Source: Candidatus Aenigmatarchaeota archaeon
Lineage (GTDB): Archaea > Aenigmatarchaeota > Aenigmatarchaeia > CG10238-14 > SCSR01
Length of the DNA stretch: 64,000 bases
Direction: 5' to 3'
Assembly: GCA_016213525.1 (NCBI GenBank)
Contig: JACRAE010000005.1
Span: forward strand, 145,405 to 209,404
Below the pieces are notes generated by a model. That model saw only the letters and a list, made by a program, of their open reading frames with translations. It did no database searches and was not told where the DNA came from. A program made the position numbers and the translations under genes. Below, one piece after another: positions 21,337-64,000 of this stretch. Positions within the stretch are counted from its first letter, which is position 1. Each line of letters starts with the position of its first letter.

Positions 21337-21343
21337 TTTTGAG

Positions 21344-21863: not shown

Positions 21864-21884
21864 CCAGAAGCGAATTATTCTTCG

Positions 21885-45135: not shown

Positions 45136-45200
45136 GGTTAGGAATCCCCATTTCCAGTATTTATCCTGTTCGGACGGGATGCGTCCTAGAAGATGTGAAG

Positions 45201-45274: not shown

Positions 45275-45313
45275 AATTCAATATTAATTGTTGGCTTCAC
45301 AATCTTAATTAAC

Positions 45314-47699: not shown

Positions 47700-50600
47700 C
47701 TAGCAGCCCCTCACGCTCACCAGCGCCACCGTCCCCTGCCTCCCCGTCTTCTCTATGCATATCCTGTGGCTCCCCTTGCCGAACTTGTCGGTCCCGTTCA
47801 GCGCTATCCTGCCGTACTGCAGTTCCATGTGCAGCATGCCGTCGCCAGATATCAAATACGATCCAAAGGGCCTCGTCGGGAGCCCCAGGCGCGTCACCGC
47901 CTCGCTCTGGTTCGCCACCACCGCGCAGGACGCCGCCGAGAACGGCACCACTGACCTGAGGGCGCCGAGTGATGTGATGTTGAATCTGTACTCGGACGCC
48001 GCCGCGTCGTTGCACAGCGAGACGAAGCTGCCCTCGTCGCCGGAGTAGACTATACCGGAGGACCTTGTCGAGGAGAGCTCGGACTGGTCGTACGAGCAGG
48101 CGTAAAGGTAGGAAGTGTTCTGCCTGGTGTAGCAGGCCGATGCGGGAGACGTCGAAGTCGATACCGTTCCTTCGCTGGTGCCGTTGATGAATATCATGCG
48201 CATGTCATAGTCCGCGCCCTCGAAGGTGTTGTTGTGGTCCGTGAGGTTGAACGCTGCCGACTGCACGCCTTCTGCCGAGGCGACCCTGTGCCACTTTCCC
48301 CCGACTGTCCTGTTCGCGCCGCCGAGGTAGAGCTGGTAGACTTCGTCTGGAGAGAGGGTTCTGTTTGTTATAATTACTTCGTCTATGGAACCGTTGAAAT
48401 AGCGGCTTTGGCCGAAGGTGTCAGACCCTATTCTGACACCCTGGGAATTTAGTTGCGTGTTCGCTCCCGAAAGCGCTGGACTAGCCACTAAAGTACCATT
48501 CACATAGAAGAATGATGTTGTTGTGTTATATGACCAAGTAACATGGGTCCATACATTATTTGGAATTATGTAATTTGCTGATACGTCATTGCTGTAAAAT
48601 CCCGCAGAAAGTCCACTTACGCCATTATAGTTGGCATAGAGCCATCTTGACTGATTTGTGTTAGTAGACCCATAGACTACAATCGGTCCGTCTCCACTTC
48701 CCCTATAATAAATCCATGCTGCTATTGTGTGGGGAGAATTACCGAGAGGTAGAGAGCTTGGATTTAAGTTGTTTACATAGTCATTTGTACCGTCGAAGAA
48801 CATACATCTCCCAAAATTATTTTTACAAGACGAGTTGGTCATCCATATTGCACCATTGATTACGCCGCCACCGTTCCCAAGTCCACTTGAGTCCGTTACG
48901 TTCAACGTCGAGTTGTCGTTGAACCTATAGTGCAGCACGGTACCAGCAGGAGTGACCGGCTGCAGCGTGGTGTTCGAGTCCTCCACGCCAAAGTACCTGT
49001 ACGTCTTTCCAGATGCGGCGGTGCCGAAGTCGTCGTAGTACCTCGTGACTTCGCGCTGGTAGTGCTCGCGGATCTCGGTGTCTGTGAGGGCGCGAGGATA
49101 CAATCTTACTTCATCAATCGTGCCGTTCCAACTTCTCTCGTTGAACGGGGTCTGTGCCCCTATCTTTGTCGAATAGGAACCGCCGGTACATATCGTTCCT
49201 ATGGTACCGCCACCACCGGATTGTATCCCATTGATGTATATCTGGGCTTTGTTTCCCTTATGAGTCACGGCCACGTGATACCATGTATTGAGTGACAATG
49301 CGTCCACACCATCGACATTAGTCCAACCACTACCCACAACATAAAACCACGCCCTCAGCACGCCTGTACTAGTCGTTGTATACAGACCGTACCCGCAATT
49401 GTCAGCTACAGTGTTCTTTGTAAAAATTGCCTTTAAGCCTTGGCCAGCAGTCGGTATCTGATTAGGATTTACCCAGGCTTCTATGGTCAGATCACCGGAT
49501 ATGTCAAAAATCGAGCTACTCGAAAGATTGACGTTATTGAATCCACCGTCGAAGCTCATGCAGCTGCCGAACTTGCATGATGAGTTTGAAATCCAGGTCG
49601 CGTTCACGGTACCCGTGTTCCCGTTCCCGCTCGAGTCAGTCGCGTTCAGGCCGGAGCCCTCGTCGAGGCGCCAGATTCCAGAAGCGCCGCCGTCATAGTT
49701 GAAGAGCAGCGAGGAATCGTGCTGCGTGACTCCGGACAGCGGGTTCGTCGAGTTCCAGGAGGCAGGATACCTAATGATTACGATTCCAGAGCCTCCTGTA
49801 CCACCAACGCCTCCGGCACCGCTTGCGAATGAAGCACCGCCGCCTCCACCGCCCGTGTTGGCGGTGCCGTCTGCTCCATTGTTGTTTCCGCCACCCGCGC
49901 CGGCATTACCGCCTCCTCCCGACCCGCCCGAACCGGACGTGCCACCCGTCCAAGTTCCACCGCCGCCTCCACCAGCCCTGTACACCAAGGTGCCGTTTAT
50001 GCTGCTCGCCAGTCCAGACCCTCCATTACCGCCTACCGTATTGCTTGGCGCCGTCTGGCCTACTGCACCAGCCCCGCCACCACCGCCATGGGGATAATTG
50101 CCGCCACATGCCGAGTATCCCGTGCCACCACTGTTTCCCTGGCCAGGCGTCCCCGCCACTGGAGACAGGGCACACGCGCTCCCTCCTCCCGAACCTCCAT
50201 GGGACCCGATGCCGGGCCCTCCCGAAGTGTCTCCTCCCCCTCCTCCCTTAGATTCAATGGTGTCGAAACTTGAGTTGGTCCCGTTCAAACCTTCGTTGAC
50301 ACTATCCACGCCTCCTCCCCCACCAGCCCCGATTACTATCGGATATGACCTGGAGGTTACTCTGTGGCCCGTTCCTGCCAAATAACCCCCGGCACCACCA
50401 CCGCCCCCGTATTTTCCACCACCACCTCCCCCTCCCGCTATCACAAGATATTCAACATTACCCGAGCCGCTAGTCACGTTGAACGTCCCGTTCGATGTGA
50501 ACGTGTGTATCTTGTAGCCGTCCGCGTACGTGACGTTGCCGCCCGTTGCTATTATTCCAGGAAGGTCGTACCACGTCAGCGTGCTGTTCGCCACGGACTC

Positions 50601-53600
50601 GATCAGCTCGCTCGAAAACTGCGTGGCGTTGTTCTGAGGGTTGAAGTTCGTCGTGTTCATCCTGCCCATCGTGCCTAGCGAGAACATGAAGTTCTGGTTC
50701 ATTGTGGAGTTGAACGTGTAGTTGAAGCCGAAGAAGTCGGTATGGTTGGAGAAAATGTTGAAGCCGGATTGTGTCGTGTTGGACAGAGTTCTGAAAACAT
50801 TTCTGACATTCGTCGTGGCGAACAACACCTCCTCGTTGTCCGTCGCGTTGTTCTTGGTGAAGTATATCCCGGGCTTCTGCTGGTTTATGCCTGTGTGATA
50901 CAGCTGAAGAATCTCCGAATGATTAAGGGCACGCCTATAGATTCGGGCCTCGTCAATATACCCATTGAATACTGTGTCACCAATGACTGCGTCTTTGGAC
51001 GACGAGACATCATAAACACTTCCAGACGCCGTCTTGTCAAGTGTGCCGTTGATATAGAGCCTCATATTGCCCCCTTCCCTTACCCCCACAACATGACTCC
51101 AGGATCTGACCGGTATCTTAGAATTAGATTGAATCTCAAGGTAACCGACGTTTTCAGTGACGAAATCGATAGTCCCGTCGGTGCCCAGAAGTCTCATGTA
51201 CCATTGCGCATTCCCCCCGCCCGGGTTTCTCTCTCCAACAAAAAATGATCCGGAAACCATGGCGCGGGGATTTACCCACACTTCGGCTGTGAAGTCGCTT
51301 GTTCCGAGATTCAAATTATTGTTGTCTGGCAAAAATACGATATCATCGCTCCCGTCGAAGCTCAGGCAGGAGCTGAACTTACAAGAAGAATTGCTGACAC
51401 GGGTAACTCCACCACTAAGATATCCAGGATTCCTCAGACCCGAAGAATCAGTGACATTCGTTCCAAATCCCTCGTTGAAGTTCCAGTACCCGACCAGTCC
51501 TGGCTCGGCTGTGGTGACGGACGTGCGGTTCTCGGGGAGGGAGAATGGGATGGATATGTTGCCGGGGCCGCCTGGGATCGTGGTGCCGTCCCAGAACTGC
51601 ACGTCGTCTATCCTAACCATATTGTCGTTCGACACAGCCTGATAGAAGAACTTGCCGAACAGGTATCTAAGGTCCGAGAAATACGACTTCGACGAAAGGG
51701 ACGTTGTGGCGGTCTCTTCTAGGTTGGAGTACTCGTCCGTGTAGATTTTCACGTCGACCTTCGGGTCTGACGCCGTGTAGACTAATTCCACCCACCTCGT
51801 CGCCGTGAGGGGCTCCGCTCTGCTAATTCCCGTCGCGTACTCGTTGGTGTTCGTCCAGGTGAAAGCATACATGTTAGAGGTCGATCCCGCGGCGTGCGCC
51901 GCCACCGCGAAGTGTATGGAATCGGCGGTCGCGGACGGATTCTCGCCGGAAAGCGAAGTGGAGTCTGTAAGGCCGAACCTCGCCATGACCGCTTGGCCGC
52001 TGGCGTCGTTTATGTAGTTGTTCAACACGACTTTGAACCTCATCACCCATCCGATGTTGTTGTCGGCGTAGTTTCCGGATCCCAAGACCCGTTGAAGATC
52101 ATAGGTCACCCAGTTATCGTCACCACTCTGGTTGTTGTTCATGTTCAGCGTTCCGTTCGTTATCGTCATCTTTCCAGAAGTCCCCGACCAGCTCGAGTTC
52201 GCCGAAAAGTCGTCCTTGAACTTAGTCCCGCCCTTCGAGTCGACGAATACCCTGACGAATGGGTCGTGAGCGGTCATAAGGAAACTTACGTTGACGCCGG
52301 GTTTGGTCATGTTCATGTTGGGATTGAACGCGTACCTCCACTTGAACTCCTGCTTGTTCCTAGGGTCGAGCCAGTCGGGCACCCCAGCCGCTTTATATCT
52401 TATAATAACGATACCCGAACCTCCCGCTCCGCCCGCATTTGCCGGGCTGCCAGCAGATGCCCTGGCTCCTCCACCGCCCGAACCGGTGTTCGCTGTTCCA
52501 GCCGTTGCAACTGCATTTCCTATAGATCCCGCCCCGCCCCCTCCCGAGCCCCCGGTGCCGGCAGCGACCGTAGCGCCTCCCCCACCTCCGCCAGCCCTAG
52601 TGACTGTAGAGCCGTTTATTCTGGACGATAGTCCAGCCCCTCCAGCACCGCCGGTGGTCCCCGAGTTGTTGCCGCCCGCACCTCCAGCTCCACCACCACC
52701 GCCTCCGACGTCTGCAGCAGAGCTCGACCCACCAATATTTCCCTGTCCAGAAGTTCCAGCCGCCCCGCCAAGTAGCTCCGCCCCACCGCCGCCCGAGCCT
52801 CCAGTTGACGCATTTGTAGTTAAAGCTCCACCGGCACCGCCTCCAGTTGCCATAACTGTTGAAAAAATAGAATTTGTACCATTACCTCCAACGTCGAGAT
52901 TTCCTCCAGCACCGCCGCTTCCGACCGTTATGTTATAGAGCTGTGCCGATACCGAGAGTTCTCCCTCCCTGTAGCCACCGGCACCGCCTCCTCCACCGAC
53001 CCATCCACCGCCGCCTCCACCTCCTGCTATAACAAGGTACTCCACTGTGCCGTTTCCAGACGTGACGTTAAACGTCCCATTTGAGGTGAAAGTGTGTATC
53101 GTATAGCCTTCCGCGTAAGTTATGTTGCCGCCAGTCGCCACTATTTTTTCAGATCCCTTTTTCCACAGAATCCAGCCCTGTTGATTCCAGTCGTAGAAAT
53201 AGACCGTCTTGTTCTGGGTGCCGGAGCCGTACAATGAAATCAAATTCTGGCCGTCGACTTTAATCGCGTCGTCGAAGCTCGCGTTGAAGATTATTTTATT
53301 AGACGAGTTGTACACGGTCATGTTCCTCTCCGTCATGCCGACGCGGATGAAGTCGTTCGATATGTTGACCACGCCGTAGAGCGAGCCGTTCTCGTCCATC
53401 CAGTAGCTGCCTCCAGGGCGGGAGTCGCGCAGCCCGAACTCGAACCCGTCCGAGCCGGCGAGGGTGTAGTTGACTGTGGTGTGGGTGGAGTTAGAGGTGT
53501 AGTTCCACGAGCCCTGCCCTATGCCAAGGAGCTCCCTCACGTCCCTCAGGCTGCCGTCGGACGCGTTGTAGAGGACCGAGGACGCGCCTCCTATTTGGAA

Positions 53601-54497
53601 GACGGACGTGCTGGAGTTGCGGGTGTAGTTTGTGTTGTCGATGATTGAAGTGTAGTTCACAGACCCGCCTGGAATAGAACCGCCCGAATATGTGAAGCTG
53701 GTCTCATTGCCTGCAATCCTTATCACGTCGCCAGTGCTGTTGGGGCCTATCCTGTAGCCGTACGTCAGGGTCGTCTGGTTGCGGGTCGTGTTCCTGACGT
53801 CGACGAGAAGGAAGTCCGACGAGGCCCGGAGCGTGTAGAGGACCTCGTACTCCGCTCCTTGAGAGGAGCGGACGTGGGCAAGCACGCCGGTGCTGGTCAG
53901 GCCGCCGCCCTCGAACGCGAGTTTGGTGTAGCCGGTGCCCCACGACGTGTCCGAGGTGCCGTTCAGGGTGATTCCGAAGTTCGTCGGGACTATCGTTGTT
54001 TGGGGCTCGGTCTTCGACCTCACCGTCTTGACGAGGGTGCTGGTGTTTATCGACGCGAAGCTGCCCTCAGTCCCCACTTTCAAAAAGACGACTTCCATCA
54101 GCTCGTTCTCTAATTTTAGATGGGTCGAGTTCTGGCTCGCGGAAGCGATGCCGGTTATGGTGGTGATGAGGTTGCCTTCCCTGTTGAACGTCCCCTTCGC
54201 CAGCGCCCCGGTCTTTATCGGGAGCTCGAAGCTGAAGGAGTTCGAGTCGGAGTCGACCCTGTAGACGCCGTCGTTCACGTTGATCTGGGCCACCCTCAGC
54301 GTGCCTGTGCCCTCCGCGGCCACCTGGCGCACGAGGTTGTCTATAATCTCCATGTTCTGGCCGGCCTCGCCTATTATGCCGGTCTCCCTCGCCTCGTCAA
54401 GAACGGGCAGGCCGATTCCGAGGACGACCCCTATGCCCACGAAGACGATGAGGGTCACGAGGACGAAGCTTATGAGTTCTGACGCTCCTTTGGGCAC
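47700..54497 (-). CDS. giant (2,265 aa) class-III-signal surface protein: pilin-like N-terminus + 2 Gly-rich modules + 3 LamG-like modules + Cys-terminated cap
   Basis: GTG start. (M)PKG|ASELISFVLVTLIVFVGIGVVLGIGLP. LamG signatures (W.F.EG.G...DSSG..N.G...W.SNSSCKF.SC.SFDG; W.HV...; LYINGT/IYING; IDE[AV]R[IL]Y.RAL...EI..[LH]Y) three times. TIHTFTSNGTFNVTSG.G.VEYLVIAGGGGGGG...GSGIVIIRY twice. Ends ..VSVRGC. Confidence 0.9.
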   Translation of the reverse strand: MPKGASELISFVLVTLIVFVGIGVVLGIGLPVLDEARETGIIGEAGQNMEIIDNLVRQVAAEGTGTLRVAQINVNDGVYRVDSDSNSFSFELPIKTGALAKGTFNREGNLITTITGIASASQNSTHLKLENELMEVVFLKVGTEGSFASINTSTLVKTVRSKTEPQTTIVPTNFGITLNGTSDTSWGTGYTKLAFEGGGLTSTGVLAHVRSSQGAEYEVLYTLRASSDFLLVDVRNTTRNQTTLTYGYRIGPNSTGDVIRIAGNETSFTYSGGSIPGGSVNYTSIIDNTNYTRNSSTSVFQIGGASSVLYNASDGSLRDVRELLGIGQGSWNYTSNSTHTTVNYTLAGSDGFEFGLRDSRPGGSYWMDENGSLYGVVNISNDFIRVGMTERNMTVYNSSNKIIFNASFDDAIKVDGQNLISLYGSGTQNKTVYFYDWNQQGWILWKKGSEKIVATGGNITYAEGYTIHTFTSNGTFNVTSGNGTVEYLVIAGGGGGGGWVGGGGGAGGYREGELSVSAQLYNITVGSGGAGGNLDVGGNGTNSIFSTVMATGGGAGGALTTNASTGGSGGGGAELLGGAAGTSGQGNIGGSSSAADVGGGGGGAGGAGGNNSGTTGGAGGAGLSSRINGSTVTRAGGGGGGATVAAGTGGSGGGGAGSIGNAVATAGTANTGSGGGGARASAGSPANAGGAGGSGIVIIRYKAAGVPDWLDPRNKQEFKWRYAFNPNMNMTKPGVNVSFLMTAHDPFVRVFVDSKGGTKFKDDFSANSSWSGTSGKMTITNGTLNMNNNQSGDDNWVTYDLQRVLGSGNYADNNIGWVMRFKVVLNNYINDASGQAVMARFGLTDSTSLSGENPSATADSIHFAVAAHAAGSTSNMYAFTWTNTNEYATGISRAEPLTATRWVELVYTASDPKVDVKIYTDEYSNLEETATTSLSSKSYFSDLRYLFGKFFYQAVSNDNMVRIDDVQFWDGTTIPGGPGNISIPFSLPENRTSVTTAEPGLVGYWNFNEGFGTNVTDSSGLRNPGYLSGGVTRVSNSSCKFSSCLSFDGSDDIVFLPDNNNLNLGTSDFTAEVWVNPRAMVSGSFFVGERNPGGGNAQWYMRLLGTDGTIDFVTENVGYLEIQSNSKIPVRSWSHVVGVREGGNMRLYINGTLDKTASGSVYDVSSSKDAVIGDTVFNGYIDEARIYRRALNHSEILQLYHTGINQQKPGIYFTKNNATDNEEVLFATTNVRNVFRTLSNTTQSGFNIFSNHTDFFGFNYTFNSTMNQNFMFSLGTMGRMNTTNFNPQNNATQFSSELIESVANSTLTWYDLPGIIATGGNVTYADGYKIHTFTSNGTFNVTSGSGNVEYLVIAGGGGGGGKYGGGGGAGGYLAGTGHRVTSRSYPIVIGAGGGGGVDSVNEGLNGTNSSFDTIESKGGGGGDTSGGPGIGSHGGSGGGSACALSPVAGTPGQGNSGGTGYSACGGNYPHGGGGGAGAVGQTAPSNTVGGNGGSGLASSINGTLVYRAGGGGGGTWTGGTSGSGGSGGGGNAGAGGGNNNGADGTANTGGGGGGASFASGAGGVGGTGGSGIVIIRYPASWNSTNPLSGVTQHDSSLLFNYDGGASGIWRLDEGSGLNATDSSGNGNTGTVNATWISNSSCKFGSCMSFDGGFNNVNLSSSSIFDISGDLTIEAWVNPNQIPTAGQGLKAIFTKNTVADNCGYGLYTTTSTGVLRAWFYVVGSGWTNVDGVDALSLNTWYHVAVTHKGNKAQIYINGIQSGGGGTIGTICTGGSYSTKIGAQTPFNERSWNGTIDEVRLYPRALTDTEIREHYQREVTRYYDDFGTAASGKTYRYFGVEDSNTTLQPVTPAGTVLHYRFNDNSTLNVTDSSGLGNGGGVINGAIWMTNSSCKNNFGRCMFFDGTNDYVNNLNPSSLPLGNSPHTIAAWIYYRGSGDGPIVVYGSTNTNQSRWLYANYNGVSGLSAGFYSNDVSANYIIPNNVWTHVTWSYNTTTSFFYVNGTLVASPALSGANTQLNSQGVRIGSDTFGQSRYFNGSIDEVIITNRTLSPDEVYQLYLGGANRTVGGKWHRVASAEGVQSAAFNLTDHNNTFEGADYDMRMIFINGTSEGTVSTSTSPASACYTRQNTSYLYACSYDQSELSSTRSSGIVYSGDEGSFVSLCNDAAASEYRFNITSLGALRSVVPFSAASCAVVANQSEAVTRLGLPTRPFGSYLISGDGMLHMELQYGRIALNGTDKFGKGSHRICIEKTGRQGTVALVSVRGC
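48900..49100. repeat. direct-repeat block shared by the two giant genes (copy 1)
   Basis: Aligns with 59537..59737 (offset 10,637). Includes an identical run of about 50 nt, gtgacttcgcgctggtagtgctcgcggatctcggtgtctgtgagggcgcg. Confidence 0.8.
53266..53580. repeat. direct-repeat block shared by the two giant genes (copy 1)
   Basis: Aligns with 63687..64000 at a constant offset of 10,421 nt. I estimate roughly 90% identity by eye. Confidence 0.8.
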
Positions 54498-54521
54498 ATT
54501 CTAATCTCGTGGCGGGGTGGC

Positions 54522-54535
54522 TTATTGCTTTCCCA
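54522..54535 (-). promoter_or_regulatory. BRE/TATA-like 14-mer upstream of giant-1
   Basis: Minus-strand gggaaagcaataag, 24 nt before GTG 54497. Identical 14-mer at 55023..55036. Confidence 0.5.
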
Positions 54536-54543
54536 TCGCCGGG

Positions 54544-54999
54544 TCAGCACGCGGTGGCGTTGACCGAGACGTGGGTGCCGTTCCAGCCGGCCTTTTCGAG
54601 GCAGACCCTCTGGAGCCCCTGTCCGAGCCGAAGGTCCCCAGAGACCGATATGTTGGAATAGGTCAGGTTGAGCCTGATTTTCCCGTTGACAATCAAGCTG
54701 CTGCCCTCGAGGAAGCCCTCCGGAGCCTCTGACCTGTATTCCACCCTCCCGTCGGCGATTCTGTAGCTCCCCCCGCTCACCTGCAAGGCGACCTCCCTCA
54801 CGCTTCCCTCTCCCCCCGATGCGGTGTCGCGGATTGCATTGTCCAAAATCAGCATGCTTCTTTGAGCATCGCCCAGCTCGGCTGACGCCCTTGAGTGATC
54901 GAGTGCAGGCAGACCGAACATCAAGACGGCGGAGACGCCGGCGACGCTGATCAAAACGACTATGACGGACGATATCATCGAGGACGTTCCCTTTCCCAT
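54544..54999 (-). CDS. type IV pilin-like protein; minimal scaffold homologous to the termini of the giant ORFs
   Basis: MGKG|TSSMISSVIVVLISVAGVSAVLMFGLPALD... aligns with the giant-1 N-terminus (GLPVLDEAR..MEIIDNLVRQVAAEGTGTLR). C-terminus RVCLEKAGWNGTHVSVNATAC aligns with both giant C-termini. Confidence 0.8.
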   Translation of the reverse strand: MGKGTSSMISSVIVVLISVAGVSAVLMFGLPALDHSRASAELGDAQRSMLILDNAIRDTASGGEGSVREVALQVSGGSYRIADGRVEYRSEAPEGFLEGSSLIVNGKIRLNLTYSNISVSGDLRLGQGLQRVCLEKAGWNGTHVSVNATAC

Positions 55000-55022
55000 G
55001 CTACTAGTTCCGCGGCTCCCGC

Positions 55023-55036
55023 CTTATTGCTTTCCC
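55023..55036 (-). promoter_or_regulatory. BRE/TATA-like 14-mer upstream of the 151-aa pilin-like gene
   Basis: Minus-strand gggaaagcaataag, 23 nt before ATG 54999. Confidence 0.5.
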
Positions 55037-55049
55037 TCCCGTCAGGCAA

Positions 55050-55060
55050 CAATTTAAATC
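55050..55060 (+). promoter_or_regulatory. TATA-like box
   Basis: caatttaaatc, about 28 nt upstream of dph2 ATG 55082. Confidence 0.45.
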
Positions 55061-55081
55061 CCCTTCTGTCATTCTATTGGT

Positions 55082-56038: not shown

Positions 56039-56071
56039 ACACAACACGACCAATTATTCTAGTTGATTTTG

Positions 56072-56350: not shown

Positions 56351-56374
56351 CTCATTTTTCTAATACGCAATAAC

Positions 56375-56929: not shown

Positions 56930-56974
56930 GGTATTCAGTTTCCCCCTCCTCGGCTTAAAACTTTCCGTGGACGG

Positions 56975-59900
56975 TCAGCAGTTGGTGGCGTTGATCAGTA
57001 TCCTCGGCCCGTCCTGCCCTATCTTCTTGAAGCACGCCCTCTCCAGGCCCGGTCCCATCCTGAGGTCTCCCAATATCTTAATCCTGTCGTACTGCAGCAC
57101 CATCTGTAGGTTGGACGGCCCGCCCGCCAGATAGGAGCCGAACGATATCGCAGGGACGCCCTGGCTGAAGACGGTTCCCGTGCCATTGCCTATCGTGCCG
57201 CAGTCCCCGGTCGAGAACGGTATTATGGTCTTCAGCGGCCCGGCGGCGGTGAGGTTGAACTTGTACACCGCCCCCGTCTGGTTCCCGCCGACGCCCTCGA
57301 AGCATATCGAGGAGAAGTCCTGCGCCCTGCCGGCCCCGATTATGCCCGAAGCCTTGGCCTGGGAGAACTCGGAGTCGTCGTACGAGCAGGCGTACGGCCT
57401 GGTGACGTTCGTGATGTTGAAGCATCCCGGGCTCGGGGCGGCCGCCGAGATGGACGAATTCGAAGTCGAGCCGTTCACCGTCAGCGCGCGCATGTCGTAG
57501 TCCGCGCCCTCGAAGGTGCTGTTGTGGTCCGTCAGGTTGAACGAGACTGACTGTATCCCGTCGGCGGAGGCGACCCTATGGATGCGGCCGTATATCGACT
57601 CCGAGTCCTGCGTCTGGACGTACTCGTGCATCACCTCATCTGACGTGAGGGCGCGCTTCCAAACCTTGACGTTGTCCACCGTGCCGTTCAGGTATCCGTG
57701 GGTCGCGTCGTTGGGGCTGGACGACCTCGCCCCTATCGTGAATATGCCTGTGTCATCTTGTATCGTCCCGGAAAATGATGCAGATGAAACCCTGGTCCCG
57801 TTTACGTAGAGGGTGACGTTCTTGACGACGTCATCGACGACCAAAGTCGCATGTACCCATGTATCGAGAGGAAATATTGTTCCCGGACCGGAAGACACGG
57901 TTGTCTGGGTTGTGCTCCCATTATATATTATCCCTCTGATTGATGGAGTCGTCCCATCCCAGAAGAGCATGTACCCCTCGTAGTCCCCTGTCACGTCCTC
58001 CTTCCCGGCTATCCCTTGGTTGGCGTTGCCGGATATGTTCCCGAGCCTCTTCGTCCAGGCGGACACGGTCAGGCTCTTGTGGTTCAGGCTCGGGGAGTTC
58101 TCGACCTTCACGTAGTCGTCCATACCGTCGAACCTCAGCGCATTCCCCAGCTTGTCATCCGACCCATGGACTCCTCCCGTCAGGTTGCCGGTGTTACCGT
58201 TCCCGCTGGAATCCAGGGTGTAGTTGGAATAGATGAAAGTGGCGTTCGAGCTCCCCGCGTTGCTTCCGTCGTATATCCTCATGTTGTCTATGGTGGCGGT
58301 CAGCGTCCTCGATCCCGATCCTTCCTTTCCGTTTGCGTGCTGCAGGTACCTCAAGTTCTGTATCGTGGCAGGAACCGACCTGGTGACGGACCCGACCAGG
58401 GTGCTCCTCTGGGGATCGGAGAAGACGGACATTGCCATGGCGGTCGCGTTCAGCCTCTCCACGCGCATGTAGTATGTCGTACTGGAGCTCAGAGTGGTCC
58501 CAGTCACGATGGACGCGTCCGTCCCGTTGTCTATGTATTCCGGATGCATCCTGTTGCCGTCGGCCCCGTCGTATCCAAAGTTGACGCCGATTCCATCACC
58601 GCTCGCCGTGTCGTAGACATCCTGACTGTCGTTGGTAAGCCAGAACACCCTGTGGGACGGTATGTTGGACGCCGTCCACCTGAACTCGAAATTCGCCACC
58701 CATCTAGTGTTGCTGAGGTTCCGCCCCAGATCGTACCACACTCTGCTTTCGACGGCGTCCGCGCCGAAACCCGTCACCTGTCCGTTCGAGACCGCGACGC
58801 CGGACCCGACCTGCGTCCATCCCCCGGAAGAGGAGTAGTTGAAGCTGATGTCCGGGAGGTCCGCGTCGTTGAACTTCCACCATCCAACCAGGTCGCCGCC
58901 GTGCCTCTGGGCGCCGCCGAGGTAGAGCTGATAGACCTCGTCGGGGGACAGGCTCCTGTTCACTATGATTAAATCGTCAATCATCCCTCCTAGGAAGCCG
59001 GTGGACCGGGCCCTGCCCAGATCGAGGTTGTATGTCGGGCCCAAGGAGCTCGGATTGAAGCTGAGCTTGTCGTATGTCTCCATGTTGCCGCCGTCGAAGA
59101 ACACCCTGGCGTTGCCACGGGTCAGGTTGTTGTCGTATGTGACGGTGAGCATGTGCCATTTCTCATCGTCGGTTATCTTTCCGATTGACGTCACGTCGAG
59201 GAGTCCCTGCGCGCCGTTGCCGTTGGCTATTTCATAGTCTATCGTGCCGTCGGTGTTTGATTCCAGTCCTATTCCAACGTTCGCCCACGTGTCGTCTTTG
59301 TTGTCAAGTATGTAGTCCTTCGTCGCCCCTCTCTTCTTGAACCACGTGTTTATGGTGAACTTAGAGTTGCTCTTGTGCATCCATGCCCAGTTGCTGATGT
59401 TTCCCAGCTGGACATAGTCGTTAGAGTCGTCGAAGCTCATGCAGCCGCCGAAGCTGGCCATGCATGACGTATTTGAAATCCATGCCGCTCCATTTACAAC
59501 AGAGCCTGTAATATTGTTACCGGAAGCGTCCGTCGCGTTCAACGTCGAGTTGTCGTTGAACCTGTAGTGCAGCACCGTTCCCGCGGGCGTCACCGGCTGC
59601 AGCGTCGTGTTCGAGTCCTCCACGCCGAAGTAGCGGTAAGTCTTCCCGTAGGTGGCGGTGCCGAAATCGTCGTAGTATTTAGTGACTTCGCGCTGGTAGT
59701 GCTCGCGGATCTCGGTGTCTGTGAGGGCGCGGGGATAGATACGAACTTCGTCGAGATAGCCGTTGAAGAAGTTAGCAACTCCGCCTCTGGCGCCCATTAT
59801 CAAATTTGTCGGGTTCGGGTTTAAGGTGACAGACAATGCATACTGAGACTCCATAATACCATCGACATAAATTCGGCTAACGCTGCCGTCATATGTTCCT

Positions 59901-62900
59901 ACAACATGATGCCATATGTTGTCGTTGAACACCGTCCTAGTCTTCGGGGCGGCGTTTCCCTGCAGGGCAAAATATATCATATGGTCGTCTGACCCGGCGG
60001 TTCCGGCATGAGTAAGAGCGTAGCCGTTAGTGTTGTATCCTCCTTTGTCTATTATGCCGGCGTCAATTGACGGCGCTCCCGGACTCTTTATCCAGGCTTC
60101 CAAGGAGATCTTGTTATTGATGTTCAGGGACGTGCCGTTGCCGGCATTTATATAATCATTTGATCCATCGAAATAAATACAGCCGCCATATTTACAGGAA
60201 GAATTGCTAATCCAAGCAGGTCCGCTTAGAAGAGTTCCCGTGTTCCCGTTCCCGCTCGCGTCGGTCGCGTTCAGCCCGGAGCCCTCGTCGAAGCGCCAGA
60301 TTCCGGCAGCGCCGCCGTCGTACATGAAGAACGGTGTGGTAAAGGAAGTCGCTCCGTTAGTTTGGTTGACCGTGCCAAAGTTCGGATAGTTGTCTATAGT
60401 TGCGAGGTAGTCGGCGCGGATTTCGTCCTGTGATAACGCACGGGAATATGCCTTAAGGTTGTCTATCATGCCGTTGAAGAATACCGAGCCCCCAGATGTG
60501 GATCCTACTCTGAACTTACATGTCTGGTTGCAATTGATGTTGTTTATCGTGCCTACTATCGTGTCTGTGCTGGTGCTTTCTACCCCGTCTACGTACAGGC
60601 TCATGCTGTCTTTACCGTATCCGGTCGGAGTTCTCCTCGCCACACCAACCGCATGGTGCCAGTTTCCATCAGCGTAATTCGCAGACGTGTCTCTCTGGTG
60701 ATAATTAGAGTTGTCTCCGCCTTGGACAAGCCAGCTGACATGACCCCCAGAAGTAATTAGAAGCTGGTAGCCAGCGTTGTTGTCTATGTTCTTGCTGACT
60801 AGGGTTCCGGCCGAGGTCACGGTCGTCCTGAACCACACTTCCATGGTGAAGTCCTGTGTCATGTTGAGTGCGAGCGTGTTGTTGACCTCAATGTAGTCGT
60901 TCGAGCCGTCAAAGCTTATGCAGCTGCCGAAGTTGTTCTTACACGACGAGTTCGTTATCCATGTAGGACTGCTTGTGAGTGTGGCGGTGTTGTTGTTCCC
61001 GGTAGAGTCATAGGCCGTCGTACCCCCACCCTCATTGAACCTCCACCACCCGACGAGCGAGCCGTCGAACAAATCGTAGTAGGTCATCGTCGAGTTCGCG
61101 ATGGACTCGATTAGCTCGTTGGAGAAAACAGAATAATTATTTTGAGGGTTGAAGACAGTTGTGTTCATCCTGCCCATAGTGCCGAGGGCGAACATGAAGT
61201 TCTGATTCATGGTGGAGTTGAACGTGTAGTTGAAGCCAAAGAAGTTGGTGTGGTTGGAGAATATCTGGAAGTTGGAGGCGGTCCCGACGTTGCTGTTGGC
61301 GGATGTCCTGTTCACGTTCTTGAAATTCGTCGTCGCGAACAGGACCTCCTCGTTGTCCGTAGCGTTGTTCTTCGTGAAGTAGACGCCGGGCTTCTGCTGG
61401 TTGAGACCCGTTAGATATAATTGTCGAATCTCCGATGGACTCAATGCACGGTTGTATACTCGGGCCTCGTCCAGTTCTCCCCGTAAAGAGGCTGCTGCGT
61501 CGTGACGGACCGCGAAAAGTATGTAATTTCCGTTGCTAGTGAAGCTTCCAGTCCTTGAAGTGGCCGCTTCCTCTATTCCGTCCACATAGACCCTCATCGT
61601 GGTCCCATCGTACGTGCCTACAACATGATGCCACGCGTTATCGTTGAAAAGGGTGTTGGTTGTCACGCTCGATCCCAGCGCCCCAAAGTATATTTTGTGG
61701 TCCGATGCGCCCGCGGTTCCGGCGTGAGAAAACCCTATTTCGCTGTTTCCACTGTACATTATAACAGTATCTAGACTATTTGCTCCCGGAGACTTGACCC
61801 AAATAGAGTAAGACGCGCTGTTCCTTCCAGACAATTCAAAGTTAATCCCCGTACCGTTGATGTAGTCTCCGGAGCCGTCGAAGCTCACGCAGCCTCCAAA
61901 TTTACAAGATGAATTTGAAACCCAGCTAGTTCCGCCATAGAGCCTCTCTGTGTTACCATTGCCGCTGGAGTCTGTTATGTTCGTTCCCCTGCCCTCGTTG
62001 AAGTTCCAGTATCCGACCAGCCCGGGCTCGGCCGTAGTGACGGAGGTGCGGTTCTCGGGGAGGGAGAACGAGATGGTCGTATTGGAATAGGAGCTTACGT
62101 TGCTCGTGTCCTCGTAGAACTCAAGATCGTCCACGTTGCCGCTCATCCAACCAGCCTGGCTCTGGACCACGTTCAAGATTTTGATGTACCTGAGGTCCCT
62201 TACGGTGGAAGGGACCGCGACGGTCGACCTTCCGAGAACCGTTCTGTACTTGTCAGAGAATAGGGTGAAAGTGAATGCGGTCGAGTTCTCTCTCTTCAGT
62301 TCCCACCAGTATTCCGTGTTGTCGACGAACGTGTAGAATATCTCGCCCAGCTGGCTGCCTGGAAGTGTCGAGTCGTCCACGATGAACGACCTGTAGCTGC
62401 GGCCGCCATTCCTGTCTATATAGAGGAACAAGCCGTCCTGGGTGGAGCTGGCGGACGTGTTGGTGCTGGAAATGCCTATGACTATGCCGGCTCCGACGCC
62501 CGCGGAGCTGGTCAGGAGGCCCGTCCTGAACCTCATCGTCCAGATGTTCCCGACGTTCCTCCCATAGTCGAAGTACATGTTGTCGTTTGTGCCGTCGTTC
62601 AGGCCCATGAAGTAGGCGGACTCTGTGCTCTTGTTGACTCGTATCTTGTTAGAATCGGCCGGTATCCATATGGAGTCTGCCTGAGATTGGCTGGAGTAGG
62701 ACGAAAAATCTTCTCTCAGGTTGGCTAGACTGTCGCCCGAGTCCACAAATATCCTCACGAATGGGTCGTGTGCCGTCATCAGGTAGGTGTAGTTGACGAC
62801 CGGGCTCCCTGCCCTCGAGAAGGAATATCTCCACTTGAACGCCTGTTTGTTCCTCGAATCGAGCCAGTCAGGTACGTTGCTGTCTCGATACTCTGCCAAT

Positions 62901-64000
62901 ATCTCATCGGGTGTGAGCGCCTTGTGCCAGACCTTCACGCCGTCCATCAGACCGTTGAAATTGTAGTATCCAGACCCTTCATTGCCCAAAATAAACGCGC
63001 CTAGAGACCCGCTACCCTGCGGCAGCTTGCTCCATTGGGCAGTTGGGTTGTTACCAGAGGTGCTCTTCGCGGTCTGGACAAGGTTGCCGTCTATGTACAG
63101 CTGCCTGGTCGCGTTGTCCTTGTAGACGACTGCGAGGTGCGTCCAGCTGTTGATGGTGGGTGTGTAGACGAAGGACTCATCGTTCTGGTACGAGCCATAG
63201 TATATCGTCGTCACGCCGGAGCTGCTGAACATACGAAGGTGGTACCCACTGTTGTACGCGCCCCATTCCTTCTGCATGATGTACGACCAATCGTTGCTCG
63301 GGAGCGCCCTCGGTTTTATCCACACGCCGATTGTCAACGGGTTGCTGGTCGAGTCCAGACTAGCGGAGTCCGGGGCCTTCACGCTGTTGCCGACGCCATC
63401 GAAGCTCAGGCAATACCCATAATTCTCCCTACAGGAGGAGTTCGTTATCCGCGTCACGTTGGTTACCGTGGCGGTGTTCGCGTTCCCGCTCGAATCCGTC
63501 GCGTTCCCACTGATTTCGTTGAACTTCCACCACAAACCTAGGTTCTCTCCGGCCACGGTCTTTGAATCGCCGTATCCCTTCTGCCAGGGGACCCATTTTT
63601 GCCCACTCCAGTCGTAGAAATATACGGTCTTGTTCTGCGTTCCCGCCCCATAAGTCGATATCATGTCTTGCCTGTCGACCTTCACAGCGTCGTCGAAGCT
63701 CGCGTTGAAGATTATTTTATTAGACGAGTTGTACACGGTCATGTTCCTCTCCGTCATCCCGACGCGGATGAAGTCGTTCGATATGTTCACGATGCCGTAT
63801 AGGGAGCCGTTCTCGTCCAGCCAATAGCTGCCGCCGGGTCTGCTGTCCCGTACGCCGAACTCATACCCGTCCGAGCCGGCGAGGGTGTAGTTGACGGTCG
63901 TGTGGGTGGAGTTCGAGGTGTAGTTCCACGAGCCCTGGCCTATGCCGAGGAGCTCCCTCACGTCCCTCAGGCTGCCGTCGGACGCGTTGTAAAGGACCGA
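56975..64000 (-). CDS. giant surface protein, paralog 2 (partial: 5' end beyond the window; at least 2,341 aa here) with at least 6 LamG-like modules and Cys-terminated cap
   Basis: The frame stays open to nt 64000 (SVLYNASDGSLRDVRELLGIG...). The track's M at 63961 is an internal GTG. Colinear with giant-1 residues from about 306 onward. Six W.F.E..G...D.SGN.NT modules. Ends ..ILINATNC. Confidence 0.9.
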   Translation of the reverse strand, partial: SVLYNASDGSLRDVRELLGIGQGSWNYTSNSTHTTVNYTLAGSDGYEFGVRDSRPGGSYWLDENGSLYGIVNISNDFIRVGMTERNMTVYNSSNKIIFNASFDDAVKVDRQDMISTYGAGTQNKTVYFYDWSGQKWVPWQKGYGDSKTVAGENLGLWWKFNEISGNATDSSGNANTATVTNVTRITNSSCRENYGYCLSFDGVGNSVKAPDSASLDSTSNPLTIGVWIKPRALPSNDWSYIMQKEWGAYNSGYHLRMFSSSGVTTIYYGSYQNDESFVYTPTINSWTHLAVVYKDNATRQLYIDGNLVQTAKSTSGNNPTAQWSKLPQGSGSLGAFILGNEGSGYYNFNGLMDGVKVWHKALTPDEILAEYRDSNVPDWLDSRNKQAFKWRYSFSRAGSPVVNYTYLMTAHDPFVRIFVDSGDSLANLREDFSSYSSQSQADSIWIPADSNKIRVNKSTESAYFMGLNDGTNDNMYFDYGRNVGNIWTMRFRTGLLTSSAGVGAGIVIGISSTNTSASSTQDGLFLYIDRNGGRSYRSFIVDDSTLPGSQLGEIFYTFVDNTEYWWELKRENSTAFTFTLFSDKYRTVLGRSTVAVPSTVRDLRYIKILNVVQSQAGWMSGNVDDLEFYEDTSNVSSYSNTTISFSLPENRTSVTTAEPGLVGYWNFNEGRGTNITDSSGNGNTERLYGGTSWVSNSSCKFGGCVSFDGSGDYINGTGINFELSGRNSASYSIWVKSPGANSLDTVIMYSGNSEIGFSHAGTAGASDHKIYFGALGSSVTTNTLFNDNAWHHVVGTYDGTTMRVYVDGIEEAATSRTGSFTSNGNYILFAVRHDAAASLRGELDEARVYNRALSPSEIRQLYLTGLNQQKPGVYFTKNNATDNEEVLFATTNFKNVNRTSANSNVGTASNFQIFSNHTNFFGFNYTFNSTMNQNFMFALGTMGRMNTTVFNPQNNYSVFSNELIESIANSTMTYYDLFDGSLVGWWRFNEGGGTTAYDSTGNNNTATLTSSPTWITNSSCKNNFGSCISFDGSNDYIEVNNTLALNMTQDFTMEVWFRTTVTSAGTLVSKNIDNNAGYQLLITSGGHVSWLVQGGDNSNYHQRDTSANYADGNWHHAVGVARRTPTGYGKDSMSLYVDGVESTSTDTIVGTINNINCNQTCKFRVGSTSGGSVFFNGMIDNLKAYSRALSQDEIRADYLATIDNYPNFGTVNQTNGATSFTTPFFMYDGGAAGIWRFDEGSGLNATDASGNGNTGTLLSGPAWISNSSCKYGGCIYFDGSNDYINAGNGTSLNINNKISLEAWIKSPGAPSIDAGIIDKGGYNTNGYALTHAGTAGSDDHMIYFALQGNAAPKTRTVFNDNIWHHVVGTYDGSVSRIYVDGIMESQYALSVTLNPNPTNLIMGARGGVANFFNGYLDEVRIYPRALTDTEIREHYQREVTKYYDDFGTATYGKTYRYFGVEDSNTTLQPVTPAGTVLHYRFNDNSTLNATDASGNNITGSVVNGAAWISNTSCMASFGGCMSFDDSNDYVQLGNISNWAWMHKSNSKFTINTWFKKRGATKDYILDNKDDTWANVGIGLESNTDGTIDYEIANGNGAQGLLDVTSIGKITDDEKWHMLTVTYDNNLTRGNARVFFDGGNMETYDKLSFNPSSLGPTYNLDLGRARSTGFLGGMIDDLIIVNRSLSPDEVYQLYLGGAQRHGGDLVGWWKFNDADLPDISFNYSSSGGWTQVGSGVAVSNGQVTGFGADAVESRVWYDLGRNLSNTRWVANFEFRWTASNIPSHRVFWLTNDSQDVYDTASGDGIGVNFGYDGADGNRMHPEYIDNGTDASIVTGTTLSSSTTYYMRVERLNATAMAMSVFSDPQRSTLVGSVTRSVPATIQNLRYLQHANGKEGSGSRTLTATIDNMRIYDGSNAGSSNATFIYSNYTLDSSGNGNTGNLTGGVHGSDDKLGNALRFDGMDDYVKVENSPSLNHKSLTVSAWTKRLGNISGNANQGIAGKEDVTGDYEGYMLFWDGTTPSIRGIIYNGSTTQTTVSSGPGTIFPLDTWVHATLVVDDVVKNVTLYVNGTRVSSASFSGTIQDDTGIFTIGARSSSPNDATHGYLNGTVDNVKVWKRALTSDEVMHEYVQTQDSESIYGRIHRVASADGIQSVSFNLTDHNSTFEGADYDMRALTVNGSTSNSSISAAAPSPGCFNITNVTRPYACSYDDSEFSQAKASGIIGAGRAQDFSSICFEGVGGNQTGAVYKFNLTAAGPLKTIIPFSTGDCGTIGNGTGTVFSQGVPAISFGSYLAGGPSNLQMVLQYDRIKILGDLRMGPGLERACFKKIGQDGPRILINATNC
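59537..59737. repeat. direct-repeat block shared by the two giant genes (copy 2)
   Basis: Partner of 48900..49100. Confidence 0.8.
63687..64000. repeat. direct-repeat block shared by the two giant genes (copy 2)
   Basis: Partner of 53266..53580. The similarity runs to the window edge. Confidence 0.8.

What the first reader, a model, noticed from the sequence alone, without database searches (positions are those of the whole stretch)
47700..64000. Two tandem giant pilin-signal + LamG-array proteins: candidate undescribed archaeal adhesion / host-contact surface system
Seen in the sequence:
- Two co-directional minus-strand ORFs take up about 13.8 kb of the last 16.3 kb. One is 47700..54497 (2,265 aa, complete). 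The other is 56975..64000 (at least 2,341 aa). Its frame runs off the window, and colinearity with giant-1 predicts about 300 more N-terminal residues.
- Giant-1 does not start with a Sec signal. It starts with PKG|ASELISFVLVTLIVFVGIGVVLGIGLP: a very short basic leader, a Gly, then a helix of about 22 hydrophobic residues. The five small pilin-like ORFs here (MKG|[ILV]SP...) have the same layout.
- The body is modular, with four module types. (a) LamG/ConA-like modules of about 190 aa, three in giant-1 and six in giant-2, with the recurring string W.F[ND]E..G....D[SA]SGNGN.G......W[IV]SNSSCK...C.SFDG..DY and later W.HV..., .[LI]Y[IV][ND]G and IDE[VA]R[IVL]Y.RAL[ST]..EI...Y. (b) Gly-rich modules, in giant-1 only. 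(c) A second module of about 230 aa ending RYL....(20)..[IV]D[DN][VLM].[FI][WY][DE][GD]. (d) A shared C-terminal cap ending in Cys.

Established knowledge: LamG_3-type domains are carbohydrate/protein-binding jelly rolls. Class III signals direct proteins to the prepilin peptidase and type IV filament pathway.

Inference: these are filament-tip or surface-tethered adhesins of a kind I cannot match to a described family. The compact gene organisation and split genes would fit a small-genome, possibly host-associated archaeon, where such proteins could mediate cell-cell contact.
Basis: partly seen in the sequence, partly recalled or inferred. Interest (0 to 1): 0.9.

Follow-up and report, generated by a model that had tools for sequence, protein, structure and literature searches.

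The report
Giant pilin-like LamG adhesins, DPANN archaeon
Two huge surface proteins of an uncultured Aenigmarchaeota (DPANN) archaeon start like a pilus subunit and carry long arrays of sugar-binding LamG modules, so they are most likely pilus-displayed adhesins: an oversized version of a known design, not a new kind of system.

Summary
Giant-1 (47700..54497, minus strand, 2,265 aa) and giant-2 (56975..>64000; 2,661 aa in the NCBI record) are real, distinct paralogues. They carry 3 and 6 Pfam Laminin_G_3 domains. Giant-1 also has two Gly_rich_2 domains. Both share an unassigned ~220-aa module and a ~200-aa Cys-rich C-terminal cap.

Both start with a short basic leader, KG, then a hydrophobic helix. 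The first 240 residues of giant-1 fold with high confidence (pLDDT 93.7) into a 59-residue N-terminal helix plus a beta domain. This N-domain defines a family of about 818 cluster representatives. Most members are ~240 aa; a size ladder (151, 421, 627, 1,084...3,085 aa) leads up to the giants.

In four related genomes the syntenic gene ends a type IV pilus operon: ATPase, two platform genes, two pilins, four small pilin-like genes. It is followed by the same BFN-RpoL-Dph2 genes seen in the window (a fifth locus keeps only the last small gene and the right-hand part).

Best reading: giant modular minor-pilin-type adhesins. Not shown: signal cleavage, filament incorporation, ligand, and the pilus operon in this genome itself.

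The concept is already published: LamG proteins linked to pilus loci in DPANN, and bacterial modular pilins with lectin modules. I rate it a new variant of a known kind, with moderate interest.

The parts
47700..54497 (-). Giant-1, 2,265 aa (NCBI 'LamG domain-containing protein', P0001)
54312..54497 (-). Giant-1 class-III-like leader (MPKG|A) plus a long N-terminal alpha helix (aa 4-62 in the model)
53778..54497 (-). Giant-1 pilin-like N-domain, aa 1-240. It is only weakly DUF7289-like by Pfam (22-24 bits, below the cutoff of 27). The AF2 model has pLDDT 93.7.
53157..53777 (-). Giant-1 N-domain extension, aa 241-447. Its tail is 88% nt identical to giant-2 (63607..64000).
52386..53144 (-). Gly_rich_2 #1 (aa 452-704). 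It occupies the backbone slot that holds LamG #1 in giant-2.
51579..52313 (-). Module c (aa 729-973). No family could be assigned.
50889..51506 (-). Laminin_G_3 #1 (aa 998-1203)
50562..50885 (-). Conserved ~100-aa linker module e (aa 1205-1312)
49758..50555 (-). Gly_rich_2 #2 (aa 1315-1580). It occupies the slot that holds LamG #3 in giant-2.
49053..49694 (-). Laminin_G_3 #2 (aa 1602-1815)
48318..48950 (-). Laminin_G_3 #3 (aa 1850-2060)
47703..48302 (-). Cys-rich C-terminal cap (aa 2066-2265), shared by 10 proteins
54544..54999 (-). 151-aa mini paralogue (HY833_02905). Its N-terminus aligns to giant-1 aa 1-100 and its C-terminus to the last 54 aa of the cap. DUF7289 score 32.4 bits, above the cutoff of 27.
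56975..64000 (-). Giant-2 (aa 321-2661 of P0002, HY833_02925). Its N-terminus lies beyond the window.
62882..63550 (-). Giant-2 Laminin_G_3 #1
62102..62815 (-). Giant-2 module c #1
61406..62029 (-). Giant-2 Laminin_G_3 #2
60401..61066 (-). Giant-2 Laminin_G_3 #3
59690..60319 (-). Giant-2 Laminin_G_3 #4
58913..59587 (-). Giant-2 Laminin_G_3 #5
58259..58873 (-). Giant-2 module c #2
57614..58267 (-). Giant-2 Laminin_G_3 #6
56978..57592 (-). Giant-2 Cys-rich cap
55082..56929 (.). Housekeeping genes between the giants: Dph2 55082..56038 (+), RpoL 56063..56350 (+), BFN nuclease 56375..56929 (-). They serve as the synteny anchor to the pilus operons of relatives.

Best explanation
The two giants are oversized modular minor-pilin-type adhesins of a type IV pilus (type IV filament) system in a DPANN (Aenigmarchaeota) archaeon.

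Proposed mechanism:
1. The short basic leader ending in KG is removed by a prepilin (class III) peptidase (inferred).
2. The ~59-residue N-terminal helix holds the protein in the membrane.
3. The helix is then built into the filament by the ATPase and the two platform proteins, together with four small pilin-like proteins encoded just upstream. The likely position is the tip, because a 250-290 kDa ectodomain cannot be packed along the shaft (inferred).
4. The ectodomain is a string of ConA-like LamG modules, Gly-rich modules and unassigned modules. It is heavily N-glycosylated and probably disulfide-bonded. It binds glycans or glycoproteins on a host cell or a surface (inferred from the domain family).
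5. Conserved junction sequences flank fast-diverging or exchanged module cores. This lets paralogues and relatives carry different module sets on one backbone.
For: N-terminus:
- Giant-1 reads MPKG|ASELISFVLVTLIVFVGIGVV and giant-2 reads MKG|ASALVSAVLVMLISVVAVS.
- 84 of 150 family representatives have [KR]G followed by a hydrophobic stretch. The commonest +1..+3 residues are VSP/ISP/LSP, as in archaeal pilins.

Structure: AF2 on giant-1 aa 1-240 with 93 family members gave pLDDT 93.7 and pTM 0.77. The model has one helix (aa 4-62) followed by a beta domain.

Family:
- An HMM of the N-domain finds 818 cluster representatives. Most are 225-260 aa stand-alone proteins, with a size ladder of 421, 627, 1,084...3,085 aa.
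- The 151-aa neighbour aligns to giant-1's first 100 residues and to the last 54 residues of its cap.

Operon linkage in relatives:
- L002, L010+L004, L011 and L016 show T2SSE ATPase, T2SSF x2, two pilins, four small pilin-like genes and an N-domain adhesin, followed by BFN, RpoL and Dph2. L017 keeps the last small pilin-like gene, the adhesin and BFN-RpoL-Dph2, but its held flank shows no ATPase, platform or pilin genes.
- The window has the same right-hand half.

Extracellular location:
- The giants carry 77 and 72 N-x-S/T sequons (3.1-3.4 per 100 aa, twice what composition predicts). Cytoplasmic proteins here have 0.9 or fewer per 100 aa. The giants have 16-18 Cys.

Adhesin modules:
- Laminin_G_3 x3 and x6.
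- Other family members carry DUF2341 or a sialidase-like CBM on the same N-domain.

Modularity:
- Nucleotide identity between the giants is limited to junction pieces at 76-90%, while LamG cores are 30-49% identical.
- Gly-rich modules in giant-1 sit where LamG modules sit in giant-2.
- LamG modules are nested inside the N-domain in P0005, P0006 and P0007.

Precedents: PMC9934059, PMC4858521, PMC5498576 and bioRxiv 10.64898/2026.04.22.720090.
Against: - No TIGR02537 or PF07790 match for the giants or the 151-aa protein.
- Giant-1 reaches only 22-24 bits on DUF7289, against a cutoff of 27, and only over about 80 N-terminal positions.
- Foldseek against the PDB gives no pilin match. The best hits are beta-sandwich domains of alpha-mannosidase and YidC P1 at E >= 1.6e-3 and TM 0.32-0.36.
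- Giant-1 has Glu at +3 and fails the strict FlaFind-type motif as I remember it.
- The pilus ATPase and platform genes and a prepilin peptidase were not found in the window. The rest of this organism's contig could not be retrieved.
- In L006 no pilus genes lie in the 10 kb upstream of a family member.
- There is no expression, cleavage, localisation or binding data.
Confidence: 0.6

Rival explanations
1. Surface-tethered adhesins that use the class-III route but are not part of a long filament. The N-terminal helix, cleaved or not, keeps the protein anchored in the membrane or in a short pseudopilus-like stub. The model is the Sulfolobus bindosome, whose sugar-binding proteins carry class III signals. 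The LamG array then reaches out from the cell surface.
For: - The N-terminus and LamG evidence is the same as for the main explanation.
- The very large ectodomain makes passage and packing in a filament questionable.
- The second-site copies (giant-1, the 151-aa protein, the 421-aa protein in L011) lie apart from the operon, behind Dph2.
- The bindosome is listed among archaeal type IV filament systems. That its binding proteins carry class III signals is from my own knowledge.
Against: - The stand-alone ~240-aa family members and the first-site giants sit at the end of a minor-pilin gene set directly behind the ATPase and platform genes in four genomes. This is typical of filament components.
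- No substrate-binding-protein or ABC-transporter genes are adjacent.
Confidence: 0.25
2. Ordinary signal-anchored cell-envelope or S-layer-associated glycoproteins. The pilin-like N-terminus is only a transmembrane anchor and has no link to a pilus machinery. The synteny with the pilus operon is a conserved neighbourhood without functional meaning.
For: - There is no match to curated archaeal pilin N-terminal models and no pilin hit by Foldseek.
- The same genome has other large surface proteins that share Gly_rich_2, LamG-like and Cys-ending modules but carry Sec-type signals (33328..36474, 22298..24550).
Against: - 84 of 150 family members have the KG + hydrophobic layout with archaeal-pilin-like +1..+3 residues.
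- The position after four small pilin-like genes is conserved in four genomes, partly in a fifth.
- The predicted helix is 59 residues, far longer than a membrane anchor needs.
Confidence: 0.1
3. Secreted or surface polysaccharide-degrading enzymes. The ConA-like modules would act as glucanase-type catalytic domains rather than binding modules.
For: [quoted passage not shown] There were faint hits to 3-keto-disaccharide hydrolase and sialidase N-terminal domains.
Against: - No glycoside hydrolase catalytic family was detected in either giant.
- The sialidase and pentaxin hits overlap LamG modules and have zero stretches passing on their own.
- Repeated arrays of 3-6 similar modules are typical of binding, not catalysis (inference).
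Confidence: 0.05

Closest known systems
Streptococcus sanguinis modular minor pilins PilC (ConA-like lectin module) and PilB (vWA module)
   Same: A class III signal and pilin moiety with an adhesive module grafted on. [quoted passage not shown]
   Different: PilC is bacterial, 52.8 kDa, and has one lectin module at the C-terminus. The giants are archaeal, about 250-290 kDa, with 3-6 LamG modules plus other modules and a separate C-terminal cap. No sequence homology of the pilin part was shown here, and nothing is experimentally tested.
Archaeal type IV filament 'system 1' / Epd-type loci with large ConA-like (DUF2341) adhesins and class-III-signal carbohydrate-binding proteins
   Same: One ATPase, two platform genes, several minor pilins, and a large adhesin predicted at the pilus tip. 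These loci are reported in methanogens, Thermococcales and DPANN (PMC4858521; bioRxiv 10.64898/2026.04.22.720090). Relatives of the giants with the same N-domain carry DUF2341.
   Different: DUF2341 was not detected in the two giants. I did not test which system class the relatives' ATPase belongs to. The multi-LamG arrays of 2,000-3,000 aa are not described in the passages of those papers that I read.
LamG-domain surface proteins of DPANN archaea (Mancarchaeum Mia14, Nanohaloarchaeota, Undinarchaeota)
   Same: An expanded set of LamG or ConA-like surface proteins proposed to mediate host contact. Some in Mia14 are linked to type IV pili loci (PMC5498576). Nanohaloarchaeal proteins have up to five LamG domains (PMC10266531). 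See also PMC7414124.
   Different: The passages I read do not mention a pilin-like N-domain family, a cap, a size ladder or junction-conserved module exchange.
PilY1/PilC tip adhesins of bacterial type IVa pili
   Same: A very large adhesin displayed at the pilus tip through a minor-pilin initiation complex.
   Different: PilY1/PilC is a non-pilin protein docked onto minor pilins. The giants carry their own pilin-like N-terminus.
Nanohaloarchaeal giant 'SPEARE' proteins
   Same: Giant surface proteins of DPANN archaea implicated in host interaction.
   Different: SPEARE proteins have a Sec signal, Ig-like or fibronectin arrays and a VirB4/TraG-like ATPase domain, and are 8,880-9,409 aa. None of these features is present in the giants.

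Membership tests
Archaeal type IV pilin-like (class III signal) proteins | Short charged leader ending in Gly/Ala at -1, directly followed by about 20 hydrophobic residues | tested here: met
   MPKG|ASELISFVLVTLIVFVGIGVVLGIGLP in giant-1 and MKG|ASALVSAVLVMLISVVAVSVVIAIGLP in giant-2. 84 of 150 family representatives show the same layout.
Archaeal type IV pilin-like (class III signal) proteins | Match to curated N-terminal models (TIGR02537 arch_flag_Nterm, PF07790 Pilin_N) | tested here: not met
   No hit for the giant-1 N-domain or the 151-aa protein at E <= 1. Four of the five small pilins in the window pass TIGR02537.
Archaeal type IV pilin-like (class III signal) proteins | Long N-terminal alpha helix followed by a beta-rich globular domain | tested here: met
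   AF2 model of aa 1-240: pLDDT 93.7, helix aa 4-62, then 15 strands. No solved pilin was recovered by Foldseek.
Archaeal type IV pilin-like (class III signal) proteins | Positive call by a dedicated predictor (FlaFind/PilFind) | not testable with these tools
   I could only apply a regex of the FlaFind motif written from memory. Giant-2 and 4 other giants pass; giant-1 (Glu at +3) and the 151-aa protein fail.
Archaeal type IV pilin-like (class III signal) proteins | Encoded with, or dependent on, a T2SSE-type ATPase and a TadC/T2SSF platform | tested here: inconclusive
   Met by synteny in four relatives (L002, L010/L004, L011, L016); L017's held flank does not show the ATPase or platform genes. 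The corresponding stretch of this genome lies beyond the window end and could not be fetched.
Archaeal type IV pilin-like (class III signal) proteins | Leader cleaved by an A24 prepilin peptidase, and protein incorporated in a filament | not testable with these tools
   No peptidase gene in the window. No experimental data exist.
Pfam DUF7289 (PF23960) | Score at or above the gathering cutoff (27 bits) | tested here: inconclusive
   The 151-aa protein scores 32.4 bits and passes. Giant-1 scores 21.8-24 bits and fails, matching only profile positions 2-80 of 238. A typical 238-aa member of the HMM-defined family (P0113) also gets no DUF7289 hit. The DPANN family is therefore only distantly related to the Pfam model.
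Pfam Laminin_G_3 (PF13385) | Domain score above the cutoff (27.6 bits) | tested here: met
   240.9 bits with 3 stretches in giant-1; 446.6 bits with 6 stretches in giant-2.
Pfam Gly_rich_2 (PF21722) | Domain score above the cutoff (24.3 bits) | tested here: met
   144.1 bits with 2 stretches in giant-1; none in giant-2.
Modular pilins (S. sanguinis PilC type) | Class III signal and pilin moiety with a grafted ConA-like lectin module | tested here: met
   The architecture is met. This is a resemblance of design, not shown homology.
Modular pilins (S. sanguinis PilC type) | Demonstrated glycan binding and pilus association | not testable with these tools
PilY1-like / DUF2341 tip adhesins of archaeal pilus loci | Presence of DUF2341 (PF10102) | tested here: not met
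   Absent from both giants and from module c. Present in family members P0118 and P0226.
Nanohaloarchaeal SPEARE-type giants | Sec signal, Ig-like arrays, VirB4/TraG-like ATPase domain | tested here: not met
   None of these was detected. Features were taken from PMC10266531.

The most novel reading that the evidence does not exclude
The conserved junction sequences around fast-diverging module cores, together with the Gly-rich-for-LamG swaps at fixed backbone slots, would mark a cassette-exchange platform. In this reading, DPANN archaea re-tool a pilus-tip adhesin by recombination between paralogues (two giants plus mini copies per genome) to track changing host surface glycans. This would be a programmable host-range determinant for archaeal episymbionts.
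Probability: 0.2. Interest if true: 0.7.

Novelty: new variant of a known kind. Interest (0 to 1): 0.45.

Why it matters
How DPANN archaea recognise and hold on to their hosts is largely unknown. These genes give a concrete, testable candidate: a pilus-linked adhesin whose pilin-like platform is conserved across about 800 sequence clusters while its binding modules vary from none to more than six. If the display route and ligands were confirmed, module content could be read from metagenomes as a proxy for host or surface specificity. The design would also extend the 'modular pilin' principle from small bacterial proteins to 300-kDa archaeal ones. As it stands, the finding is a well-supported annotation that refines published ideas, not a new kind of system.

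Tried and rejected
- AF2 on the 370-aa N-domain with only 6 sequences failed (pLDDT 38.4), so I discarded it. The 94-sequence alignment of aa 1-240 worked.
- Foldseek against the PDB gave no significant or pilin match. A profile search of the PDB gave only an E 0.29 hit of the helix to an archaeal 'flagellin', 8fk7.
- Module c has no Pfam or PDB sequence match. An iterated HMM drifted onto LamG, but the non-iterated HMM hits only its 8 seeds. hhalign against LamG gives 27% probability over the last 75 columns. I therefore could not show that it is a divergent LamG.
- The cap and linker module e have no Pfam hit.
- Extending this organism's contig failed by four routes. Exact-protein look-ups found only a 6.1-kb Logan contig or nothing. 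The genome collection lacks this genome. An exact 51-mer found nothing in the JGI metagenomes. The top 120 ATPase homologues included none from a 253,546-bp contig.
- A search for homologues of the 151-aa protein returned only 3 sequences.
- A literature search for 'DUF7289' returned nothing.
- Assembly duplication was considered and rejected.
- SPEARE-type identity was rejected.
Full report
**1. What is in the sequence**

Giant-1 (47700..54497, minus strand, 2,265 aa, GTG start) and giant-2 (56975..64000, minus strand, open at the window end) are present as described.

Real genes in this window have GC3 of about 0.8-0.9, while giant-1 has 0.66. The overall GC content dips inside both giants.

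Giant-1 is identical to an NCBI protein named 'MAG: LamG domain-containing protein [Candidatus Aenigmarchaeota archaeon]' on a 253,546-bp contig. Giant-2 is the 2,661-aa 'hypothetical protein HY833_02925' of the same contig. Its missing N-terminus reads ...MKG|ASALVSAVLVMLISVVAVS....

**2. Modules**

- Pfam finds Laminin_G_3 three times in giant-1 (E 7e-72) and six times in giant-2 (E 3e-135). It finds Gly_rich_2 twice, in giant-1 only.
- Home-made HMMs give the full maps listed under 'parts'.
- Module c occurs once in giant-1 and twice in giant-2. The linker module e (~100 aa) and the Cys-rich cap (~200 aa) each occur once per protein. None of the three has a Pfam match, and module c, the only one searched against the PDB, has no sequence match there either.
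- Module c aligns only weakly to the C-terminal half of LamG (hhalign 27%), so its fold stays open.
- The two giants are colinear paralogues. Giant-1's LamG #1, #2 and #3 correspond to giant-2's #2, #4 and #5. The two Gly-rich modules of giant-1 sit in the slots occupied by LamG #1 and #3 in giant-2. Giant-2 also has an extra module c plus LamG before the cap.
- Nucleotide identity between the genes is limited to junction and linker pieces (76-90% over 70-400 nt). LamG cores are only 30-49% identical in protein, even between positional equivalents.
- This rules out an assembly duplication. A Logan assembly (L001) reproduces window 53615..59711 at 100% identity. It breaks at the repeated junctions, so module order across them deserves long-read confirmation.

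**3. The N-terminus and its family**

Both giants and the 151-aa ORF just upstream of giant-1 (54544..54999) start with a short basic leader, KG, and a hydrophobic stretch.

The five small pilin ORFs of the window have the same layout. Four of them pass the curated archaeal pilin N-terminal model TIGR02537. The giants and the 151-aa protein do not. They touch only Pfam DUF7289, at 32.4 bits for the 151-aa protein (passes the cutoff of 27) and 22-24 bits for giant-1 (fails).

The 151-aa protein aligns to giant-1's residues 1-100 and again to the last 54 residues of its cap. It looks like the giant with everything in between left out.

An HMM of the first 370 residues of six giants, run against 1.84 billion cluster representatives, finds 818 members (460 at E <= 1e-10). 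Most are 225-260 aa stand-alone proteins covering profile positions 1-237. A ladder of larger members follows:
- 421 aa: N-domain plus cap, no LamG;
- 627 aa: one LamG;
- 862-1,708 aa;
- 2,012-3,085 aa.

Some members carry DUF2341 or a sialidase-like CBM instead of, or beside, LamG. In three giants a LamG module is nested inside the N-domain itself.

With 93 of the ~240-aa members as an alignment, AlphaFold2 models giant-1 residues 1-240 at pLDDT 93.7 and pTM 0.77. The model has one continuous helix (residues 4-62) followed by a beta domain. That is the general shape of a type IV pilin.

Foldseek finds no solved pilin. It gives only weak similarity of the beta domain to sandwich domains of alpha-mannosidases and YidC (E >= 1.6e-3).

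**4. Genomic context**

The window itself holds no pilus ATPase, platform protein or prepilin peptidase.

In relatives the picture is consistent. Four contigs (L002, L010 with L004, L011, L016) show this order:
1. T2SSE ATPase (with a PilB3_N domain in one contig);
2. two T2SSF platform genes;
3. two classic pilins on the opposite strand;
4. four small pilin-like genes (the first weakly DUF7266);
5. an N-domain adhesin;
6. BFN nuclease, RpoL and Dph2.

A fifth contig, L017, keeps the last small pilin-like gene, the adhesins and BFN-RpoL-Dph2, but its upstream flank shows no ATPase, platform or pilin genes.

Behind Dph2, L004, L011 and a short JGI contig (L013) hold a second family member: a 3,085-aa giant in L004, a 421-aa protein in L011, and a cut-off one in L013. 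In L016 and L017 the extra ~240-aa member lies before BFN instead, and none was detected behind Dph2 in L002. The window has the 151-aa protein plus giant-1 at that site. A small SWIM protein follows in five loci.

The window matches this layout from giant-2 rightwards, down to the 72-aa SWIM protein, a 283-aa protein and a DUF87 ATPase that is 85% identical to the one in L011. By synteny the pilus operon should lie just beyond coordinate 64000. I could not retrieve that stretch, so this step is inferred.

**5. Location and function**

The giants carry 77 and 72 N-glycosylation sequons, about twice what their composition predicts. Cytoplasmic proteins of the window have almost none. The giants also have 16-18 cysteines. 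This fits extracellular, glycosylated, probably disulfide-bonded proteins.

LamG/ConA-like modules are binding modules for carbohydrates or proteins (established knowledge of the family). No catalytic family was found.

The most likely mechanism is display of the array by the pilus machinery through the pilin-like N-domain, probably at the tip together with the four small pilin-like proteins. The array would mediate attachment to a host cell or a surface.

What is shown and what is not:
- Shown: architecture, family, predicted fold of the N-domain, synteny in relatives, and sequon bias.
- Inferred: leader cleavage, filament incorporation, tip position, ligand, and presence of the operon in this genome.

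**6. Comparison with what is known**

- Golyshina et al. 2017 reported an expansion of LamG proteins in a DPANN archaeon, noted that they are abundant across DPANN, that some are linked to type IV pili loci, and proposed host interaction.
- Makarova et al. 2016 modelled large DUF2341 proteins of archaeal pilus loci as PilY1-like tip adhesins.
- A 2026 preprint describes 'system 1' loci (one ATPase, two platform genes) in methanogens, Thermococcales and DPANN. [quoted passage not shown]
- In bacteria, S. sanguinis PilC is a characterised modular pilin with a ConA-like lectin module at the pilus tip.
- Nanohaloarchaeal papers describe surface proteins with up to five LamG domains, and the unrelated SPEARE giants.

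No paper found here describes this N-domain family, the cap, the size ladder or the junction-conserved module exchange. 'DUF7289' returns no paper. All close homologues are unnamed metagenomic proteins.

**7. Verdict**

The adhesin and pilin-signal reading is supported as the best explanation, with confidence about 0.6 for pilus display and higher for an extracellular adhesin. The claim of an undescribed system is not supported. This is a new, extreme variant of a known kind: modular, pilus-linked ConA-like adhesins. Interest is moderate (0.45).

Noticed in passing
window 22298..24550 (+) and 33328..36474 (-): Two Sec-signal surface proteins (750 and 1,048 aa) with beta-helix/NosD repeats and a partial Laminin_G_3. 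The longer one also has a Gly_rich_2 domain. Their C-terminal 463 nt are 92% identical (24086..24548 vs 33330..33792) and both end in Cys. Modules are thus shared between pilin-type and Sec-type surface proteins of this genome.
   Followed up: partly
window 20926..22298 (+), 14187..14588 (+), 16798..17232 (-): Five classic archaeal pilin genes, four of which pass TIGR02537. Three are in tandem directly upstream of the beta-helix surface protein at 22298..24550, far from the giants.
   Followed up: partly
window 47481..47699 (-), 46586..47437 (-), 45134..46585 (+): A 72-aa SWIM zinc-finger protein follows giant-1 and is conserved at the matching place in five related loci. In L011, as in the window, a ~280-aa protein of unknown function and a DUF87/HerA-type ATPase (85% identical in L011) lie next to it. 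Any functional link to the adhesins is unknown.
   Followed up: partly
window 53615 and 59711 (ends of L001): An independent short-read assembly of run SRR12113407 breaks inside both giants, at or next to the 88%-identical junction repeats (53186..53579 / 63607..64000 and 48891..49100 / 59528..59737). These repeats are the weak points of the assembly.
   Followed up: partly
L004 7505..8017; L012 539..991: Small 'N-terminus plus cap-end' paralogues like the 151-aa ORF recur. There is a 170-aa one after the first giant in L004. There is also a 67%-identical 151-aa one directly upstream of a giant-1-like gene start in a JGI metagenome contig.
   Followed up: partly
window 44605..44679 (-) and 45200..45274 (-): ARAGORN calls two tRNA-Pro genes (anticodons TGG and GGG) about 500 nt apart. 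Only the second reaches the Rfam tRNA gathering score.
   Followed up: no
window 2920..4518 (-): A 532-aa ORF with an N-terminal hydrophobic segment. By eye it has multicopper-oxidase-like His motifs (HWHG, HPHV, HCHIPEH). I did not run it against Pfam.
   Followed up: no
window 42524..44497 (-): A 657-aa Sec-signal NosD/beta-helix surface protein. It has a Pro/Ala/Glu-rich stalk and a C-terminal hydrophobic segment that may be a membrane anchor.
   Followed up: no
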